This document shows, piece after piece, positions 22,432-45,558 of a DNA stretch of 64,000 bases; within the stretch, counting starts at the first letter, position 1, and each line of letters starts with the position of its first letter. Position numbers and translations under genes: made by a program. The notes under the pieces were generated by a model. It searched no databases. It was given only the letters and a program-made list of their open reading frames with translations, and was not told where the DNA came from. Origin of the DNA: Dehalococcoidia bacterium (GTDB lineage Bacteria; Chloroflexota; Dehalococcoidia; UBA2979). The DNA is taken from contig CBDCPB010000004.1 in NCBI GenBank assembly GCA_965220125.1, positions 1,670,227 through 1,734,226 on the forward strand, given 5' to 3'.

Positions 22432-22812
22432 TCACCCCGGGCGATCAAGCGTGCGGCGGATGGCGTCCTTCACGTTCTGGCTCGTCATCCGCGACGCCAG
22501 GGCGCCGTGCTGCACTCGCAGCAGCAGGTCCGGGTCGAACGGCTCCCTCTGTTGAAGTACGCCGCGGATCCTCGCGTCATCCAACGGCCGCACTGGATTT
22601 AGTATCGCACCACGGTAGTAGACGCACGAGTCGCGGGACGGGTACTCGTGCTCGCCGGGTCCCACCACGACACATCCGGAGCCGCATATCCTCTGGCGCC
22701 CGTGGGTCGTGAGATTCGCCAGCGCCACAAGGCCAGCGTCGGTCTCAATGCTCAGGACAATCCAAAGGTGATTGCCGAAGTCCAGGCCGAGAATCGTCTC
22801 TCCGGGATCCAC
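22432..22812 (-). CDS. Uncharacterised 126-aa protein overlapping the Panacea antitoxin-like gene; candidate toxin
   Basis: Its GTG start shares one base with the upstream gene's TAG stop. GC is lower than the flanks. I recognise no family from the sequence (MDPGETILGLDFGNHLWIVLS...). Confidence 0.5.
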   Translation of the reverse strand: MDPGETILGLDFGNHLWIVLSIETDAGLVALANLTTHGRQRICGSGCVVVGPGEHEYPSRDSCVYYRGAILNPVRPLDDARIRGVLQQREPFDPDLLLRVQHGALASRMTSQNVKDAIRRTLDRPG

Positions 22813-23369
22813 TACCCAGAGTACGCCTCGTGGAAGGAGCGGGCGGCATCGGCTTGTTCGCGGACCGCCCGAATTTCCGTTTCACTCAGACCGGCTTCCC
22901 GGAGAATGACAGTCTCGTCGATACCAATGGCGCTGCCCGAGGGATCGACCCACTCGGGGAGATCGTGGGTGAAGTCAACCAACTCCCAGCGGCTCATGTG
23001 CCCGAATTGGTCGATCACCTGCTCGAGGACGGCCAGCTCGTACTCCGACAACTCATCAGCCTCAGTCCGCTTGATGAGACTGACTTCATAGTCCACCGGG
23101 CTCGACACGTACTCGTGCCATGCTGATGGCTCGACGGGGCGGTCTTGTCTGATCAGGTCCAATACCCGGCTCAGCGCCGGCCCACGGTCCATCGACACCA
23201 GGCGATCGCCGGTGATGGGGTACCCCGATTCAATCAGGGACTGCCGATCCGCGAGGTACAGCAGCTTGATGAGCTTGAGGTACGGCATCCGCCCGTCGTG
23301 GCGATCGAGCAGCCACGCGGCGGCCTGCGCGGTCTTGCGATCATTGAAAACGAACTGCATCTGTGTCAT
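22812..23369 (-). CDS. Panacea-domain (DUF4065, SocA/GepA-like) putative antitoxin
   Basis: Internal ATG at 23369: MTQMQFVFNDRKTAQAAAWLLDRHDGRMPYLKLIKLLYLADRQSLIESGYPITGDRLVSMDRGP matches the DUF4065 N-terminal pattern. GC is lower, with an AT-rich stretch at the start. Confidence 0.65.
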   Translation of the reverse strand: MTQMQFVFNDRKTAQAAAWLLDRHDGRMPYLKLIKLLYLADRQSLIESGYPITGDRLVSMDRGPALSRVLDLIRQDRPVEPSAWHEYVSSPVDYEVSLIKRTEADELSEYELAVLEQVIDQFGHMSRWELVDFTHDLPEWVDPSGSAIGIDETVILREAGLSETEIRAVREQADAARSFHEAYSG

Positions 23370-30687: not shown

Positions 30688-31095
30688 CTACCGGCGCGGG
30701 CGTCCGGCGGGGACGTTGCTCACGCGGACATGCTCGGCGGTGTACGGGAGCAGGGCCATGTGACGAGCGCGCTTGATCGCCTGCGCAAGGAGCCGCTGGC
30801 ACTTGGCCGTGCAGCCGCCGCGGCGGCGCGCCTCCATCTTTCCCCGCTCCGTGAGGTAGCGCCGCAGCATCGACGTGTTCTTGTAGTCGACCACACGCGT
30901 GCCGGGCGGGCAGAACTCGCAGGGCCGTCGCCGGCCGCGGCCTCCACCGCCGCCACCGCCGCCGCCACGGCCGCCGCGTCCACGCCCGAAGTCCGAGTCG
31001 CGATCGCGGTCACGGTCGTGGTCACGGTCGCGGTCGCGATCGCGGCCCATGGGCGGGCGGCCCGGTGCGGCGCTTCGGGGTGGCTCGGTAGTCAT
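30688..31095 (-). CDS. rpsR: 30S ribosomal protein S18 with an N-terminal RD/RGG low-complexity extension
   Basis: Core CEFCPPGTRVVDYKNTSMLRRYLTERGKMEARRRGGCTAKCQRLLAQAIKRARHMALLPYT. The N-terminus reads GRDRDRDRDHDRDRDRD...GRGRGGRGGGGGGGGGRGRRR. Confidence 0.88.
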   Translation of the reverse strand: MTTEPPRSAAPGRPPMGRDRDRDRDHDRDRDRDSDFGRGRGGRGGGGGGGGGRGRRRPCEFCPPGTRVVDYKNTSMLRRYLTERGKMEARRRGGCTAKCQRLLAQAIKRARHMALLPYTAEHVRVSNVPAGRPRR

Positions 31096-31119
31096 CGGCT
31101 CCTCCGGCTCAAACGGCGG

Positions 31120-31533
31120 CTAGAACGGCAGGTCATCGGCATCGAGATCGCCCCCGGCGTCGGACACGCCCAGGGGCGGCGCGCCCGCGCCCTCGAACGC
31201 GGCATCGCGCGGACTGCCGAGGAACTTCACTTCCTGGGCGATCAGCTCGGTGGTGTATCGGGTCTGCCCGTCCTGGCCCTCCCAGGAGCGGGTCTGCAAC
31301 CGGCCCTCGACGTAGACCTGGCGGCCTTTCGAGAGGTACTGGCTGCAGATCTCGGCCAGGCGGTTCCAGGTGACGACCCGGAACCACTCCGTCTCCTGAC
31401 GGCGCTCGCCGTCGCCCGTGGTGTATTCGCGGTTCGAGGCGACGTTGAAGTTGGTGACGGCACTGCCGTTGGCGGTGTACCGCATCTCCGGATCGGCGCC
31501 AAGGTTCCCGATCACCATTACCTTGTTCAGCAT
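31120..31533 (-). CDS. ssb: Single-stranded DNA-binding protein
   Basis: OB-fold motifs (MLNKVMVIGNLGADPEMRYT, WFRVVTWNRLAE) and an acidic C-terminal DDLPF. Confidence 0.9.
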   Translation of the reverse strand: MLNKVMVIGNLGADPEMRYTANGSAVTNFNVASNREYTTGDGERRQETEWFRVVTWNRLAEICSQYLSKGRQVYVEGRLQTRSWEGQDGQTRYTTELIAQEVKFLGSPRDAAFEGAGAPPLGVSDAGGDLDADDLPF

Positions 31534-31602
31534 GCTCGCACCCCCGTCCCTGGGGAGAGTAGCCGATTCGTTGCGCCCTCGATCATCGGGACCGCCGAGG
31601 TG

Positions 31603-32157
31603 TCACTCCGCCGGAGCCGCGGCGGGCGCTTCCGCTGCCCCCGGCTCGGCGGCGGGCGCCTCTGCCGTCTCCGGCTCGGCGGCGGGCGCTTCGGCTGCCT
31701 CGGGCTCGGCGGCGGGCGCTTCGGCTGCCTCGGGCGCTTCCTCCACGGGCGGCCTCTCGTCGCGCGGTGGCGCCTCGTCGCGCGGTGGCGCCTCGTCGCG
31801 CGGCGGCGCCTGCCGCGACGTGGCGCGGCGCTGGTACATGACCTCTTCCTCCGGCGGGCCGTCGTAGCCGGGGACGAGGCCGCGGACCAGCAGGTGCCGC
31901 AGGATGTTCTCGTTGATGTGCAGCGCGCGCTCGAAGCCGGCGATGCGATCGCCCGGCATCGTGATGTGCGTGAGCACATAGGTGCCCTCGAAGTGGTGCT
32001 TGATCGGGTAGGCGAGACGGCGGCGGCCCCAGTTGTCCGTCATCAGGATCTCGCCGCCTGTGTCTTCGACCAGCCCCTGGACGCGCTCGATGGTGGCGTC
32101 GGCCTCCTCCACCATCAGGCGCGGGCTGATCACGTACATCAACTCGTACTCGTTCAA
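31603..32157 (-). CDS. rpsF: 30S ribosomal protein S6 with a Pro/Glu/Ala repeat C-terminal tail
   Basis: Core MNEYELMYVISPRL...GRRRLAYPIKHHFEGTYVL. The tail contains APPRDE x3 and AEAPAAEPE repeats. Confidence 0.88.
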   Translation of the reverse strand: MNEYELMYVISPRLMVEEADATIERVQGLVEDTGGEILMTDNWGRRRLAYPIKHHFEGTYVLTHITMPGDRIAGFERALHINENILRHLLVRGLVPGYDGPPEEEVMYQRRATSRQAPPRDEAPPRDEAPPRDERPPVEEAPEAAEAPAAEPEAAEAPAAEPETAEAPAAEPGAAEAPAAAPAE

Positions 32158-41431: not shown

Positions 41432-42108
41432 TTAGGTCGCTGCGGCGTCTCCGGAGTCCGGTGGGGTCGCGGAACCGGAGGCCACGTCATCCGCGGCGTC
41501 GCCTTCAGCGGCCGACGCCTGCGAGTCATCGATGTAGCCCGGCTCCGACACGTCTTCGGCGTTCGTCAGATCGGGGGTATCCACCCCGGCCTCCGCGCCT
41601 GCCTCGGCAGCAGCCGCTTCTGCGACGAGCGCCTCGGCGGCGTCTTCGACGCCTTCCGGCGCCTCGACGTCGACGACGACGACCTCCGCATCGGCGGTCA
41701 CATTACGCGACAGCCGCAGCGGTACGGTGTAGACCCCGACCTGGCGAATCGCCTCGGGCAGCAGTACACGACGCCTGTCCAGTTCTTCGCCGAGAATCTC
41801 CCCAGCCTTCTCGGCGATGTCAGCATTTGTGACAGAACCGTACAGACGTCCCTGCTCTCCAACGCGCACGGGCATGATCAGGCGGTGGCCTTCGAGCTTG
41901 CCGACGAGCCCTTGAGCCTGCCCGTCCAGGAGCCGTTGCCGCTCTTCCTCCTGAGTGGCGAGCGTTTCCGCTCGCCGGAGCAGAGTGGGCGTTGCCGCCG
42001 CGGCCAAGCCGCGAGGCAGCAGGTAGTTACGGGCATACCCATTGGCGACGGTTCGCACCTCGCCTCGGGTGCCCGATCCCTCAACGGTCTCCAGGAACAC
42101 GACCTTCA
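41432..42108 (-). CDS. rplI: 50S ribosomal protein L9 with an acidic C-terminal tail
   Basis: GTG at 42108 gives VKVVFLETVEGSGTRGEVRTVANGYARNYLLPRGLA.... The tail is ...AEAAAAEAGAEAGVD...DSQASAAEGDAADDVASGS.... The track ORF runs 102 codons upstream. Confidence 0.85.
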
Positions 42109-42451
42109 CGCCGAAACCCTCTCGCCGTGCCGGAGCCGGGACGCCGTTGACTATGGCGACCGCGCGTGCTGCCGGCTTGCTGGTTGTCCAAGGCCCTTTC
42201 AGTTGCTTGCGAACACTCGGACACAGCGCTGTTGACGCTGCACTCTGCCCACAGGCTATCCACGGCCACGGACCACGCGCAATGCCGGAGGCGTGCGCCA
42301 ACCCCCAATCGTCACGGCGTACGCAGTCATCGTATAAGAACGCGTGTTCCGTTGTCAAACGGATGTTCTCAGGCTGTACCATGATTCCCCTGGATCCGGC
42401 GAGCTTCCCGCCCACCCGTGGCGATATGATGCTGTGCGAGTGGAGGGCATC

Positions 42452-42988
42452 GTGACGGACGCAGTGGTCTTCAACCGGCAGAGGTTCCGCGAGGCGCTGC
42501 TCTACGTAGCGCGCGAGTCCGAGGACGACATCCGGTTCGGCCTGACGAAGCTCAACAAGATCCTCTATTTCAGTGACTTCAAGGCCTTCGCAATCCTCGG
42601 GTGCGCGATCACCGGCGCGACGTACCGGAGGCTCGACTACGGCCCCGTCCCCAGCGTGCTGCTGGACGTCCTGTGCGAGATGGAGGCCGAAGGCGAGATC
42701 CAGAGGATCGAGCGGCGCGACCTCAACCGGCTGCAGAAGCGCATCGTCCCGCTGCGATCGCCTGATCTCTCCGTGTTCTCCGACCGCGAACTGGAGATCC
42801 TCGATCGCGTGATCATGGAGTTGGGCGTGCTCGACGCCTCCCAGTCGCGCTTGCTATCTCATCTCGATGTCGGGTGGAGGATCGCCCACTACGAAGAGGT
42901 CATCCCCTACCACTCCGCCTACATCTCCGACCGCCGCCCCACCCAGCGGGAACTCGCCGAGCGCGGGCTGACGCCCGCACCGTGGTGA
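42452..42988 (+). CDS. Panacea-domain (DUF4065) putative antitoxin, second copy
   Basis: GTG at 42452 preceded by GGAGGG. VFNRQRFREALLYVARESEDDIRFGLTKLNKILYFSDFKAFAILGCAITGATYRRLDYGPVP. Lower GC than the flanks. Confidence 0.65.
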   Translation: MTDAVVFNRQRFREALLYVARESEDDIRFGLTKLNKILYFSDFKAFAILGCAITGATYRRLDYGPVPSVLLDVLCEMEAEGEIQRIERRDLNRLQKRIVPLRSPDLSVFSDRELEILDRVIMELGVLDASQSRLLSHLDVGWRIAHYEEVIPYHSAYISDRRPTQRELAERGLTPAPW

Positions 42989-43326
42989 GCGGACCAGACG
43001 ACTCGCCTGACCGGCGCGAGCCCGGCGACAACGCCAGCGTTGCATACACGCCCGCATTCGAGGCTGATCTCGCCACGCTCGTGCCCAACCAGGCTCAGCG
43101 CTTCTACTTCATGCGCGACGGCATCGAGTACCGCCTCACCCACGCAATCGATCTCCAGCAAGTCACCCCACAGCAGGGCTATCTGATCACCGAGGAGCAC
43201 ATCGCCGGCATGCCAGAGTGCGTCATCTGGTTCACGATCGCCGACGCCGAGGGCAAGAGTCCTCAGTACACACTCGACAGCATCCGCGTGCGGCAGCCCT
43301 CGCACGAGGAGGAAGATGACGCCTGA
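42985..43326 (+). CDS. Small protein overlapping the Panacea gene (GTGA), candidate toxin; faint RelE/ParE-like pattern
   Basis: 113 aa from the GTG at 42985: VSGPDDSPDRREPGDNASVAYTPAFEADLATLVPNQAQRFYFMRDGIEYRL...CVIWFTIADAEGKSPQYTLDSIRVRQ. Confidence 0.45.
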   Translation: MSGPDDSPDRREPGDNASVAYTPAFEADLATLVPNQAQRFYFMRDGIEYRLTHAIDLQQVTPQQGYLITEEHIAGMPECVIWFTIADAEGKSPQYTLDSIRVRQPSHEEEDDA

Positions 43327-43329
43327 CGC

Positions 43330-45558
43330 CTACGCCCCCACACCCAGCGCGGCGGGCAGCCCGCCCTCGTGCGCCTCGCGCAACGCGGACAGCGAGGCGT
43401 CCAGCGGGCCCAACTGCAGTCGCGCGTCCTCGCCCGTGCCGCTGGCGACGCCGAGCGTCGTCGCCTCGACGCCCGCCTCGGCTGCGAGCGCCTCGAGGGC
43501 GGTGCGGGCCTCGGCGTCGGGCGCGGCGACGATGAAGCGCGACTGCGCCTCGCCGAAGAGCGCGGAATCGAGGCGCGAGCCCAGCTCGGCCTCGCGGGCG
43601 TCGAGGCCGACGCCGCCGGCCAGGCAGCACTCGGCCAGCGCGACGGCGAGGCCGCCATCGGCACAGTCGTGGGCGGCGCTGAGCAGCCCGGCCGCATTGG
43701 CGTCGAGCACGAGCCGCTGCACGCGCGCCTCGAGGTCGAGGTCGATCGCCGGGAGACCGGCGACGAGGCCGTGGCGCGACACGAGGTACTCGCAGCCCGC
43801 GAGGGCCTGCGCGGGCTGCGCGAGCGGCGCGCCGACCAGCAGCAGCTCGTCGCCCTCGCCGATCGCGGGGGTGAGCCGCCGCTCGACATCGTCGAGCAGG
43901 CCGAGCATCCCGACGGTCGGGGTGGGCAGCACCGGTCCCGCCGGCGTCTCGTTGTAGAGCGAGGCGTTGCCGGAGACCACCGGCGTGCTGAAGGCGCGGC
44001 AGGCGTCCGCAAGCCCGAGGATCGACTGCTCGATCTGGTAGGCGATCGCGGGCCGCTCCGGGTTGCCGAAGTTGAGGCAGTCCGTCACCGCCACCGGCGT
44101 CGCGCCGACGGCGACGACGTTGCGCGCCGCCTCGGCGACCGCGCAGGCGGCGCCGACGCGCGGCTCGAGTTCGACGAGGCGGCCGTTGCAGTCGGTGGCG
44201 ACGGCGAGCGCACGGTCGGAGCCCTTCAGCCAGATCAGCGCGGCGTCGCCGCCCGGCGGTACGACGGTGCCGGTCAGCACCTCGTGGTCGTACTGGCGGT
44301 AGATCCAGCGGCGGCTCGCGAGGTTCGGCGAGGCGAGCAGCGCGAGCAGGTCGGCCGTCGGATCGCCGCAGTCCGGCAGCGCGCCGAGATCGACCGCCTG
44401 GCGGCGGTCGAGGTCCGGCGGCCGCTCGCCTTCGAGCTCGTACTGCGGCGGATCGGTGAGCACGGCGACGGGGATGCGCGCGGCGATCGTCTCGCCATCG
44501 CGGATCGTCGCGTAGCCATCGTCCGTGACCTCGCCGATCACGTCGGCGTGCAGCTCCCAGCGGCGGAACAGCGCGAGCACGTCGTCGAGGTGCTCGGCCT
44601 TGGGGATGACCAGCATCCGCTCCTGCGATTCGGACAGCATCACCTCGTCCGGCGTCATGCCCGCCTCGCGACGAGGCACGCGCGCGACATCGATGTCGAG
44701 GCCGGTTCCGGCGCGGGCGGCGGCCTCGACGGCGCTCGAGGTCAGCCCGGCCGCGCCGAGGTCCTGCAGACCCTCGACCCAGTCGCCGTGCTGTTCGGCG
44801 AGCTCTACGCAGGCCTCGAGCAGCAGCTTCTCCATGAAGGGGTTGCCGACCTGCACGGCGGGGCGGCGCTCCTCGGAGGCGTCGTCGAGCTCCACCGAGG
44901 CGAAGGTCGCGCCGTGGATACCGTCGCGGCCGGTGTCGGCGCCGACGAGGACGAGCGGGTTGCCGACACCGCGCGCCGAGGCGGAGAGCAGGTGCTCGAC
45001 GCGCCCGACGCCGAGGCACATCGCGTTGACGAGCGGGTTGCCGCCGTAGGCGGGGTCGAACTGCACCTCGCCGCCGACGGTGGGCACGCCGACGCAGTTG
45101 CCGTAGCCGCCGATGCCGGCGACGACGCCGCTGAAGAGGTGGCGGTTGCGCGCCTCGTCGAGGGGCCCGAAGCGCAGCGAGTCGAGCAGCGCGACGGGCC
45201 GCATGCCCATCGCGAAGATGTCGCGCAGGATGCCGCCGACGCCTGTGGCGGCGCCCTCGTAGGGCTCGATCGCGGAGGGGTGGTTGTGGGACTCCATCTT
45301 GAAGACGGCGCACCAGCCGTCGCCGAGGTCAATCGCGCCGGCGTTCTCGGCGCCGGCCTCGGTGAGCACGCGCGGGCCGGTGGTGGGGAAGTGGCGGAAC
45401 AGCGGGCGGGTGTGCTTATAGCCGCAGTGCTCGGACCAGAGCGCGGCGGCCATGCCCAGCTCGAGCCCGTTCGGCTCGCGGTCGAGCATCACCACGAGGC
45501 GCTGGTACTCCTCGCGCGAGAGCGCGATGCGTTCGAGGGTGGCGTCGTCTACGGACAT
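43330..45558 (-). CDS. purL: Phosphoribosylformylglycinamidine synthase subunit II
   Basis: Internal ATG at 45558; MSVDDATLERIALSREEYQRLVVMLDREPNGLELGMAAALWSEHCGYKH...; about 742 aa. Confidence 0.9.
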   Translation of the reverse strand: MSVDDATLERIALSREEYQRLVVMLDREPNGLELGMAAALWSEHCGYKHTRPLFRHFPTTGPRVLTEAGAENAGAIDLGDGWCAVFKMESHNHPSAIEPYEGAATGVGGILRDIFAMGMRPVALLDSLRFGPLDEARNRHLFSGVVAGIGGYGNCVGVPTVGGEVQFDPAYGGNPLVNAMCLGVGRVEHLLSASARGVGNPLVLVGADTGRDGIHGATFASVELDDASEERRPAVQVGNPFMEKLLLEACVELAEQHGDWVEGLQDLGAAGLTSSAVEAAARAGTGLDIDVARVPRREAGMTPDEVMLSESQERMLVIPKAEHLDDVLALFRRWELHADVIGEVTDDGYATIRDGETIAARIPVAVLTDPPQYELEGERPPDLDRRQAVDLGALPDCGDPTADLLALLASPNLASRRWIYRQYDHEVLTGTVVPPGGDAALIWLKGSDRALAVATDCNGRLVELEPRVGAACAVAEAARNVVAVGATPVAVTDCLNFGNPERPAIAYQIEQSILGLADACRAFSTPVVSGNASLYNETPAGPVLPTPTVGMLGLLDDVERRLTPAIGEGDELLLVGAPLAQPAQALAGCEYLVSRHGLVAGLPAIDLDLEARVQRLVLDANAAGLLSAAHDCADGGLAVALAECCLAGGVGLDAREAELGSRLDSALFGEAQSRFIVAAPDAEARTALEALAAEAGVEATTLGVASGTGEDARLQLGPLDASLSALREAHEGGLPAALGVGA

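What the first reader, a model, noticed from the sequence alone, without database searches (positions are those of the whole stretch)
42452..43326. Second Panacea-domain gene coupled (GTGA overlap) to a 113-aa ORF with a faint RelE/ParE-like pattern, divergent from rplI
A second DUF4065-like protein (…VFNRQRFREALLYVARESEDDIRFGLTKLNKILYFSDFKAFAILGCAITGATYRRLDYGPVP…) has a good SD (GGAGGG). Its TGA overlaps the GTG of the downstream ORF (VAYTPAFEADLATLVPNQAQRFYFMRDGIEYRL...CVIWFTIADAEGKSPQYTLDSIRV), which loosely resembles RelE/ParE-fold toxins. GC is lower than the surroundings. The module is wedged between rplI-dnaB and purL. Two unrelated candidate toxins partnered with Panacea domains in one 64-kb window would fit Panacea's described role as a promiscuous antitoxin domain.
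Basis: partly seen in the sequence, partly recalled or inferred. Interest (0 to 1): 0.6.

Follow-up and report, generated by a model that had tools for sequence, protein, structure and literature searches.

The report
Panacea antitoxin plus acidic RelE-like partner
This is a two-gene toxin-antitoxin-like cassette: a Panacea-domain antitoxin gene is translationally coupled to a small, very acidic protein from an undescribed family, which is predicted to fold like RelE/ParE toxins but lacks their RNA-cutting residues, so it is an unusual variant of a known kind of system rather than a new kind.

Summary
ORF-A (42452-42988, 178 aa) is a standalone Panacea/SocA-like protein (PF13274, E 3e-16). Its TGA overlaps the GTG of ORF-B (42985-43326, 113 aa). 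ORF-B matches no Pfam, NCBIfam, PADLOC or PHROG family and no PDB sequence. Only about 14 clusters resemble it among 1.84 billion proteins. Two AlphaFold models give a beta-alpha-alpha-beta4 fold, and the best PDB matches are almost all RelE-superfamily toxins (probability 1.0, but E only 0.017). ORF-B is atypical for that superfamily. It is acidic (pI 4.3), RelE's catalytic residues are absent, profile comparison with RelE fails, and its most conserved feature is a C-terminal acidic tip (E-x-E-D-D/F-S/T/A). The pair is conserved and coupled in every relative. Both genes are under purifying selection. The module is a low-GC, hypervariable, recombining island between near-identical rplI and purL flanks, and one relative combines a 97%-identical PanA with a 63%-identical ORF-B. 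More distant PanA-linked homologues end in exact copies of the SSB C-terminal tip (DFDDDIPF). Best reading: a PanA-PanT module whose effector acts by protein binding, not RNA cleavage. Toxicity is untested.

The parts
42110..42451 (.). Divergent intergenic region between rplI and panA. No convincing plus-strand promoter or operator for panA was found. It contains a conserved minus-strand promoter-like site, TTGACA-18-TACGAT (42358 to 42329), and a conserved rplI leader.
42442..42447 (+). Shine-Dalgarno GGAGGG, 4 nt upstream of the GTG start of panA.
   Evidence: Read from the sequence.
42452..42988 (+). panA: a 178-aa standalone Panacea (SocA-like, DUF4065) protein. The Panacea domain covers residues 34-142. 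The GPV motif is at G64-P65-V66. A conserved C-terminal extension (IPYHSAYISDRRP, residues 151-163) lies outside the Pfam domain.
   Evidence: PF13274 E 3.1e-16. Invariant columns of the subfamily. dN/dS 0.13-0.21. The motif is kept across subfamilies.
42985..43326 (+). ORF-B, the candidate PanT effector: 113 aa, pI 4.3. Residues 1-17 are predicted disordered. The core is b1(18-21) a1(23-32) a2(36-53) b2(57-61) b3(64-68) b4(79-86) b5(94-102), followed by a Pro-containing linker and an acidic tip.
42985..42988 (+). GTGA start/stop overlap, indicating translational coupling. Tight coupling is kept in relatives, from a 29-nt overlap to a 9-nt gap.
   Evidence: Gene tables.
43306..43323 (+). Conserved C-terminal acidic tip, EEEDDA. 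Family pattern: E-x-E-D-[D/F]-[S/T/A]-COOH. E110 and D111 are two of only three invariant residues across the 18 family members.
43005..43020 (+). Approximate 5' recombination breakpoint seen in relative L011. Upstream of it L011 is 97-100% identical to the window. Downstream, through ORF-B, identity falls to 66-75% and L011 resembles L001 instead.

Best explanation
The two genes form a chromosomal PanA-PanT (type II toxin-antitoxin-like) module. The standalone Panacea protein PanA is made first. ORF-B is translated by coupling at the GTGA overlap, so the two appear together, and PanA neutralises ORF-B by direct binding, as shown for other standalone Panacea antitoxins. ORF-B is the effector. 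It uses a RelE/ParE-type scaffold but is not a ribosome-dependent RNase. It is acidic and lacks RelE's catalytic residues. I therefore infer that, like ParE, it acts by binding a protein target, and that its invariant disordered acidic C-terminal tip is a functional address or binding peptide. Shown: the domain identity, the coupling, conserved co-occurrence, purifying selection, the predicted fold, the acidity, the tail conservation and the recombination. Inferred: toxicity, neutralisation by binding, the non-RNase mechanism and the role of the tail.
For: ORF-A carries the Panacea domain with the GPV motif. The GPV motif is essential for neutralisation, and standalone Panacea neutralises directly (PMC8832971, PMC10440598). 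The antitoxin-then-toxin order with a 4-nt overlap is typical of the PanAT loci in Kurata's Dataset S1. A PanA gene lies immediately upstream of every ORF-B homologue with enough DNA, in at least four different genomic contexts: rplI/purL, coaBC/pepA, dapB, and others. ORF-B is a real gene, with dN/dS 0.14-0.29. Its predicted fold is consistent over five models (pLDDT 75-78, core 82-91). Its best PDB matches are RelE1, RelE2, HigB2, RelK, HigB, RelE and YoeB, and ParE2 also appears in the list. PanA paired with RelE/ParE/HigB-like or MqsR toxins is already on record. The module shows marks of a conflict or accessory element. GC is 7-12 points below the flanks. Its dS of 0.5-1.1 compares with 0.07-0.28 in rplI, purL and dnaB. 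L011 is a mosaic (PanA dS 0.015, ORF-B dS 0.91). ORF-B is disrupted while PanA stays intact in L013 (in-frame TGA) and possibly in L012 (+1 G). Against an RNase role and for a binding role: pI is 4.2-4.8 in all 18 members, no basic residues are conserved on the sheet, and the tail is invariant.
Confidence: 0.55

Rival explanations
1. ORF-B is a conventional RelE-type, ribosome-dependent mRNA interferase neutralised by PanA.
For: The best structural matches are RelE1, RelE2, RelK, RelE, YoeB and HigB. PanA-MqsR and PanA-HigB-like pairs are known.
Against: pI is 4.3 against 9.7 for E. coli RelE. In the pattern-based register, the RelE R61 equivalent is V80 (CVIWF aligned to YRLVY) and K52/K54 fall on GYLIT. 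There is no C-terminal helix carrying the R81/Y87 equivalents; a fifth strand and an acidic tail take its place. hhalign against a RelE profile gives probability 0.6%. No PF05016 hit was found.
Confidence: 0.07
2. The module is a SocAB-like (type VI) system. PanA acts as a protease adaptor that delivers ORF-B for degradation, and the conserved acidic C-terminus is a degron or adaptor handle.
For: SocA is a Panacea protein that hands SocB to ClpXP (PMC8832971). ORF-B has a conserved, disordered C-terminal tip on a variable linker. Direct and proteolytic neutralisation need not exclude each other.
Against: The NCBIfam SocA equivalog scores 13 bits against a cut-off of 190. ORF-B shows no similarity to any NCBIfam or Pfam family, SocB included. 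Kurata et al. found ClpXP and Lon dispensable for the PanAs they tested. Acidic C-termini are not known ClpX tags (from my own knowledge).
Confidence: 0.1
3. ORF-B is not a toxin. The pair is a domesticated or decayed module, or a PanA-regulated accessory factor with a host function, for example in replication or repair.
For: The chromosomal position next to rplI-dnaB is stable across species. There are no mobile-element genes and no viral or plasmid relatives. RelE's catalytic residues are lost. Many predicted PanTs are non-toxic in E. coli. Ernits et al. propose a sensory role for Panacea.
Against: Both genes are under purifying selection. The locus is hypervariable, low in GC and recombining, unlike its housekeeping flanks. 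The partnership with PanA is strictly conserved across different genomic contexts.
Confidence: 0.2
4. The roles are reversed. This PanA subfamily is the harmful partner, and the acidic, partly disordered ORF-B is its neutraliser.
For: ORF-B is acidic with disordered termini and evolves faster than PanA, as antitoxins usually do. Three PanAs were themselves toxic in E. coli.
Against: L013 keeps PanA intact while ORF-B carries a stop codon. The first-gene-antitoxin order and the RelE-like folded core fit the usual polarity. PanA keeps the GPV motif needed for neutralisation.
Confidence: 0.08

Closest known systems
PanA-PanT systems (Panacea/DUF4065 antitoxins; Kurata et al. 2022 PNAS, PMC8832971; Ernits et al. 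2023 PNAS, PMC10440598), especially predicted PanT clusters with RelE/ParE/HigB-like HHpred matches (T14, T28) and MqsR-like PanTs
   Same: A standalone Panacea protein with the GPV motif. Antitoxin-first order with a 4-nt overlap. A small partner with a RelE/ParE-type fold. The partner family varies while Panacea stays constant.
   Different: The ORF-B family has no detectable sequence link to RelE, ParE, HigB or MqsR. It is acidic and lacks the catalytic residues. It carries an invariant acidic C-terminal tip. It is known only from Dehalococcoidia-type MAGs and metagenomes. It sits at a fixed chromosomal site rather than on a mobile element.
ParE toxins (RelE/ParE-fold gyrase poisons)
   Same: The same general fold without RNase catalytic residues. 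Action by protein binding, with a C-terminal region important for toxicity (from my own knowledge). ParE2 (7r5a) appears in the Foldseek list (rank 32).
   Different: There is no sequence similarity. ParE matches rank below RelE-type matches. Gyrase targeting is untested. ParE does not have an acidic tip (from my own knowledge).
SocA-SocB (type VI TA of Caulobacter)
   Same: The Panacea-domain partner. SocB poisons replication by using a short motif to bind a replisome hub, the beta clamp. Sister clades of ORF-B carry the motif of another replisome hub, the SSB C-terminal tip.
   Different: PanA here is not a SocA orthologue (13 bits against a cut-off of 190). ORF-B is unrelated to SocB. There is no evidence for proteolytic control. 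ORF-B's own tip lacks the I/L-P-F of SSB.
SSB C-terminal tip (…DFDDDIPF), the interaction hub for replication and repair proteins
   Same: The same architecture: a folded domain, a variable Pro-rich linker and a conserved acidic tip. PanA-linked homologues of ORF-B end in DFDDDIPF, FEDDIPF or EDEDIPF.
   Different: ORF-B ends in EEEDDA (or S/T) without the hydrophobic I/L-P-F. The host's own SSB (31120-31533, minus strand) ends in DADDLPF. ORF-B has no OB fold.

Membership tests
Panacea / PanA antitoxin (PF13274) | Panacea domain above Pfam's gathering score | tested here: met
   60.7 bits against 25.7, E 3.1e-16, profile positions 1-112 of 113.
Panacea / PanA antitoxin (PF13274) | Conserved GPV signature motif, which is critical for neutralisation (PMC8832971) | tested here: met
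   Y63-G64-P65-V66-P67 in the window. G64, P65 and P67 are invariant in the subfamily, and V66 is Ala in several relatives.
Panacea / PanA antitoxin (PF13274) | A conserved, tightly linked two-gene arrangement with a partner gene | tested here: met
   Partner homologues lie directly downstream in L001-L009, L011-L016, L026, L029, L034, L035, L094-L097 and many others.
Panacea / PanA antitoxin (PF13274) | Neutralises the partner's toxicity and forms a complex with it | not testable with these tools
   Needs expression and pull-down assays.
RelE/ParE toxin superfamily | The b-a-a-b-b-b fold | tested here: met
   AlphaFold2 models. Foldseek PDB hits: 9g12_B RelE1 (E 0.017, probability 1.00, TM 0.52/0.67), 3g5o_B RelE2, 5jaa_D HigB2, 3oei_K RelK, 4fxe_E RelE, 2a6r_C YoeB. 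This rests on a predicted structure only, and no hit has E<1e-3.
RelE/ParE toxin superfamily | Sequence or profile similarity (PF05016 and related families) | tested here: not met
   No Pfam hit at E<=10 for any of the 18 members or for 10 wider relatives. No PDB sequence hit. hhalign against the E. coli RelE family gives probability 0.6% and 0.3%. Only the E. coli RelE subfamily was profiled.
RelE-type mRNA interferase | Catalytic basic and aromatic residues (E. coli RelE K52, K54, R61, R81, Y87) and a basic surface | tested here: not met
   Only G65, E110 and D111 are invariant. By pattern alignment the equivalents are hydrophobic. pI is 4.2-4.8 against 9.7. No 3-D superposition was possible.
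ParE-type gyrase inhibitor | Inhibition of DNA gyrase, with ParE family sequence signatures | not testable with these tools
   No sequence similarity. ParE2 (7r5a_A) is only rank 32, probability 0.20. Needs a biochemical assay.
SocAB type VI TA | SocA orthology (NCBIfam NF047745 equivalog) and a SocB-like partner | tested here: not met
   13 bits against a cut-off of 190. ORF-B has no NCBIfam or Pfam match.
SSB-tip mimic | A C-terminal [D/E]-D-D-[I/L]-P-F-COOH | tested here: not met
   ORF-B ends in EEEDDA and family members end in EDD[S/T] or EDFS. The feature is met only in sister clades: L026, L034, L035, P0019-P0021, P0024-P0027 and P0029.

The most novel reading that the evidence does not exclude
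ORF-B belongs to a previously undescribed superfamily of PanA-coupled proteins with a catalytically inert RelE/ParE fold. Their activity would reside in a short C-terminal acidic 'address' peptide displayed on a disordered linker. In sister clades this peptide is an exact copy of the SSB C-terminal tip (DFDDDIPF). That predicts toxins which compete with SSB for its many replication and repair partners, a counterpart to SocB's attack on the beta clamp. The window's invariant EEEDD[A/S/T] tip would be a second kind of address, aimed at a different and still unknown basic pocket. The allele shuffling at this locus would reflect an arms race over that interaction.
Probability: 0.2. Interest if true: 0.75.

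Novelty: new variant of a known kind. Interest (0 to 1): 0.5.

Why it matters
If ORF-B is a working effector, it extends Panacea's partner list to a RelE/ParE-fold protein that has given up RNA cleavage. That would be a further case of one toxin fold being reused for different biochemistry. The conserved acidic tip, and the exact SSB-tip copies in related PanA-linked proteins, give a concrete and cheap hypothesis: short-motif mimicry of a replisome hub. No toxin-antitoxin system of this kind turned up in the literature I could search. The locus is also a clear natural example of a toxin allele being swapped under an unchanged antitoxin allele. That bears on how Panacea tolerates diverse partners.

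Tried and rejected
- **Family libraries.** Pfam, NCBIfam, PADLOC and PHROGs gave nothing for ORF-B, and Pfam gave nothing for the wider relatives.
- **PDB by sequence.** No hit.
- **Profile comparison with E. coli RelE.** No similarity.
- **Rfam on 41900-43500.** Only a sub-threshold snoRNA hit inside panA, taken as chance.
- **Operator or promoter upstream of panA.** The conserved TTGTCAA belongs to a minus-strand promoter.
- **ORF-B's tail as a copy of the host SSB tip.** Rejected. The host SSB ends in DADDLPF, and no other ORF in the window ends similarly.
- **The tail as the PanA-recognition element.** Not supported. PanA motifs do not co-vary with tail type, though this is a weak test.
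- **Kurata's widespread cluster T1 (which includes a Nitrolancea pair) as the ORF-B family.** Unlikely. An exhaustive HMM search finds only 14 clusters, all from high-GC sequences.
- **Mobile context.** No relatives in IMG/VR or PLSDB.
- **Spurious ORF.** Rejected on conservation and dN/dS.

Full report
**Observation**

The two ORFs are exactly as described. ORF-A runs from GTG 42452 to TGA 42986-42988 (178 aa) and is preceded by GGAGGG. ORF-B starts at GTG 42985, inside a shared GTGA, and ends at 43326 (113 aa). A GTG three bases upstream (42982) would give the MVSGP start seen in orthologues.

ORF-A is a clear Panacea/SocA-like protein: PF13274, E 3.1e-16, covering the full domain. It is not a SocA orthologue, scoring 13 bits against a cut-off of 190 in NCBIfam.

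The module has 63-66% G+C against 70-78% in dnaB and purL. rplI (41432-42109, minus strand) diverges from ORF-A. purL converges on ORF-B with a 3-nt gap and no terminator-like site between them.

A second Panacea gene lies at 22812-23369 (minus strand, E 6e-24). It is coupled to a 126-aa partner unrelated to ORF-B.

**Is ORF-B a real gene, and what family is it?**

ORF-B matches nothing in Pfam, NCBIfam, PADLOC or PHROGs at E<=10, and no PDB sequence.

A word-indexed search of 5.8 billion proteins found five relatives at 56-100% identity. An exhaustive HMM scan of 1.84 billion cluster representatives found only 14 clusters. None of the 18 members has a Pfam hit of note. The genomes that carry it are Dehalococcoidia MAGs.

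Pairwise dN/dS is 0.14-0.29 for ORF-B and 0.13-0.21 for PanA, so both are constrained coding genes.

**Conserved partnership**

Every ORF-B relative with enough flanking DNA has a Panacea gene directly upstream. The spacing ranges from a 29-nt overlap to a 9-nt gap.
- The close relatives keep the rplI | panA-orfB | purL position.
- More distant relatives sit between coaBC and pepA or after dapB.
- In L010 the ORF-B homologue lies upstream of rplI in the same orientation.

PanA is better conserved than ORF-B: 52-60% against 29-38% identity in the distant pairs.

**Fold**

Two AlphaFold2 runs, with 5-sequence and 18-sequence alignments, agree on the topology b1-a1-a2-b2-b3-b4-b5 with disordered ends. 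With the deeper alignment all five models score pLDDT 75-78, and the core scores 82-91.

Foldseek against the PDB puts RelE-superfamily toxins at ranks 1-6 and 8-11:
- M. tuberculosis RelE1 and RelE2 (probability 1.00, TM 0.52/0.67);
- HigB2, RelK, a pneumococcal HigB, E. coli RelE and YoeB;
- ParE2, further down the list.

**How ORF-B departs from RelE**

- All 18 family members are acidic (pI 4.2-4.8). They stay acidic without the tail in every case, although one member, P0016, rises to pI 6.1. E. coli RelE has pI 9.7.
- Only G65, E110 and D111 are invariant.
- In the sequence-pattern register, CVIWF aligns to YRLVY and GYLIT to YKIKL. RelE's K52, K54 and R61 then fall on hydrophobic residues.
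- RelE's C-terminal helix, which carries R81 and Y87, is replaced by a fifth strand, a proline-containing linker and an acidic tip.
- Profile-profile comparison with an E. coli RelE family alignment finds nothing, at probability 0.6%.

A ribosome-dependent RNase activity is therefore unlikely. A ParE-like, binding-based activity is the more natural reading of a catalytically bare RelE/ParE fold, but that is an inference.

**The tail**

The most conserved element of a fast-evolving family is its extreme C-terminus: E-x-E-D-[D/F]-[S/T/A]-COOH, on a variable and predicted-disordered linker.

I fetched 80 metagenomic loci that encode PanA relatives at 38-74% identity. Most carry a coupled, roughly 100-aa, mostly acidic ORF downstream. 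These ORFs are homologous to ORF-B by iterative HMM search. They are also homologous by hhalign, with probability 88.7%, E 2.6e-6 and 81 aligned columns spanning the whole core. They too are absent from Pfam.

Their tails vary by clade. One clade ends in exact copies of the SSB C-terminal tip: DFDDDIPF, DFEDDIPF, LEDEDIPF, IYDDDIPF. The members are L026, L034, L035, P0019-P0021, P0024-P0027 and P0029. Each of those checked lies directly downstream of a Panacea gene.

The host's own SSB is in the window (31120-31533, minus strand) and ends in DADDLPF. ORF-B's tip is therefore not a full SSB-tip copy, because it lacks the I/L-P-F.

PanA's conserved motifs, including IPYxxx[F/Y][I/L]S outside the Pfam domain, do not change with tail type. 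This weakly argues that the tail addresses something other than PanA. I found no report of TA toxins carrying SSB-tip motifs in the searchable literature.

**Population pattern**

Among the window, L001, L002, L011 and L012, the flanking dnaB, rplI and purL are 87-100% identical in DNA. An exception is a short stretch at the 3' end of rplI (about 41470-41540), where L002 falls to 66-73%. The module drops to 63-85%.

Synonymous divergence of the module is 0.5-1.1, against 0.07-0.28 for the flanks.

L011 is a mosaic. Its PanA is 96.6% identical to the window's (dS 0.015, below that of the flanks). Its ORF-B is only 63% identical (dS 0.91) and is closer to L001's. The breakpoint lies about ten codons into ORF-B, near window position 43013.

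Allele genealogies at this locus are thus uncoupled from the flanks and from each other. One PanA allele coexists with ORF-B alleles that differ at more than a third of residues.

ORF-B is interrupted while PanA stays intact in two relatives:
- In L013 by an in-frame TGA.
- In L012 by an extra G in a G-run, which may be a long-read sequencing error.

These features fit an accessory, conflict-type module better than a housekeeping gene pair. However, no mobile-element genes are nearby, and no relatives were found in viral contigs or plasmids.

**Regulatory region**

The invariant TTGTCAA is the -35 of a minus-strand TTGACA-18-TACGAT site facing rplI, and it is conserved in relatives. No meaningful operator palindrome is present in the window. 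L001 and L004 do carry a perfect palindrome abutting the panA Shine-Dalgarno sequence.

**Comparison with what is known**

- Kurata et al. (PMC8832971) defined PanA-PanT systems, showed direct complex formation, and showed that the GPV motif is needed for neutralisation.
- Their Dataset S1 lists predicted PanTs with HigB/YoeB/ParE/RelE HHpred matches (clusters T14, T28) and 90 MqsR-like PanTs.
- Ernits et al. (PMC10440598) showed that standalone Panacea neutralises directly. They also found RelE/ParE to be one of the commonest toxin folds in the network.

The kind of system is therefore known. What is new here:
- an orphan, acidic, non-catalytic RelE/ParE-fold partner family with a conserved acidic tip;
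- sister clades of that family that mimic the SSB tip;
- the recombining, position-fixed locus.

**Verdict**

Membership of RelE/ParE by sequence or catalytic features fails, and function remains untested.

- Most likely (about 0.55): a type II PanAT module whose effector acts by protein binding.
- Rivals: a non-toxic or domesticated partner (0.2), SocAB-like proteolytic control (0.1), reversed roles (0.08), and a classical RelE RNase (0.07).

Noticed in passing
L026:1814-2122, L034:750-1055, L035:842-1147, L094:1395-1706, L096:3043-3348; proteins P0019-P0021, P0024-P0027 and P0029: PanA-coupled homologues of ORF-B end in exact copies of the SSB C-terminal tip (DFDDDIPF, DFEDDIPF, LEDEDIPF, IYDDDIPF). 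Other clades end in EDEGYI, EDEDYL, EEDFSQ, PPFVRYEE or MDVFL. No such toxin family turned up in the literature I could search.
   Followed up: partly
window 22432-23369 (-): The first Panacea module of the window. PanA1 is at 22812-23369 (185 aa, PF13274 E 6e-24). It overlaps by 1 nt a 126-aa partner at 22432-22812, which has no Pfam match and no similarity to ORF-B.
   Followed up: partly
window 42110-42358 (-): A conserved minus-strand promoter-like site (TTGACA-18-TACGAT, 42358 to 42329) precedes a leader of about 220 nt upstream of rplI. The 40 nt next to the start codon are invariant. RNAalifold on four orthologous leaders gives 55 pairs, 10 of them with compensatory changes, and places the SD and GTG start inside a hairpin. 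No Rfam family matches. This may be an undescribed rplI-dnaB leader.
   Followed up: partly
L011:4469-5342 compared with window 42452-43326: A mosaic allele. PanA is 96.6% identical (dS 0.015) but ORF-B only 63% (dS 0.91), with the breakpoint about 10 codons into ORF-B. A 1-nt deletion at the junction also lengthens PanA by a few codons.
   Followed up: yes
L013:732-1076; L012:5001-5337: ORF-B is interrupted while PanA stays intact. L013 has an in-frame TGA. L012 has an extra G in a GGG run, which may be a long-read error. In both, the reading frame and the acidic tip downstream are still recognisable.
   Followed up: partly
L001:5280-5475 and L004:2840-3035 (upstream of panA): These relatives have about 200 extra bp in the rplI-panA spacer. 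It ends in a perfect palindrome, CCGCGTTGCTA...TAGCAACGCGG, that abuts the panA Shine-Dalgarno sequence. The palindrome is absent from the window and from L002. It could be an operator or a translational hairpin.
   Followed up: no
window 30688-32157 (-): This is the rpsF-ssb-rpsR operon. SSB ends in the canonical DADDLPF. S18 has an odd N-terminal DRDRDRDHDRDRDRD plus Gly/Arg-rich extension. S6 has C-terminal EAPPRDE and AEAPAAEPE repeats.
   Followed up: no
L010:78-961: In a distant relative (P0017) the ORF-B homologue lies about 340 bp upstream of rplI in the same orientation. The link to rplI therefore recurs with a different gene arrangement.
   Followed up: no
window 42583-42644 (-): A sub-threshold Rfam hit to the archaeal C/D-box sRNA sR-tMet (24.6 bits against a gathering score of 50, E 0.11) inside the panA coding region. 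It is almost certainly chance.
   Followed up: no
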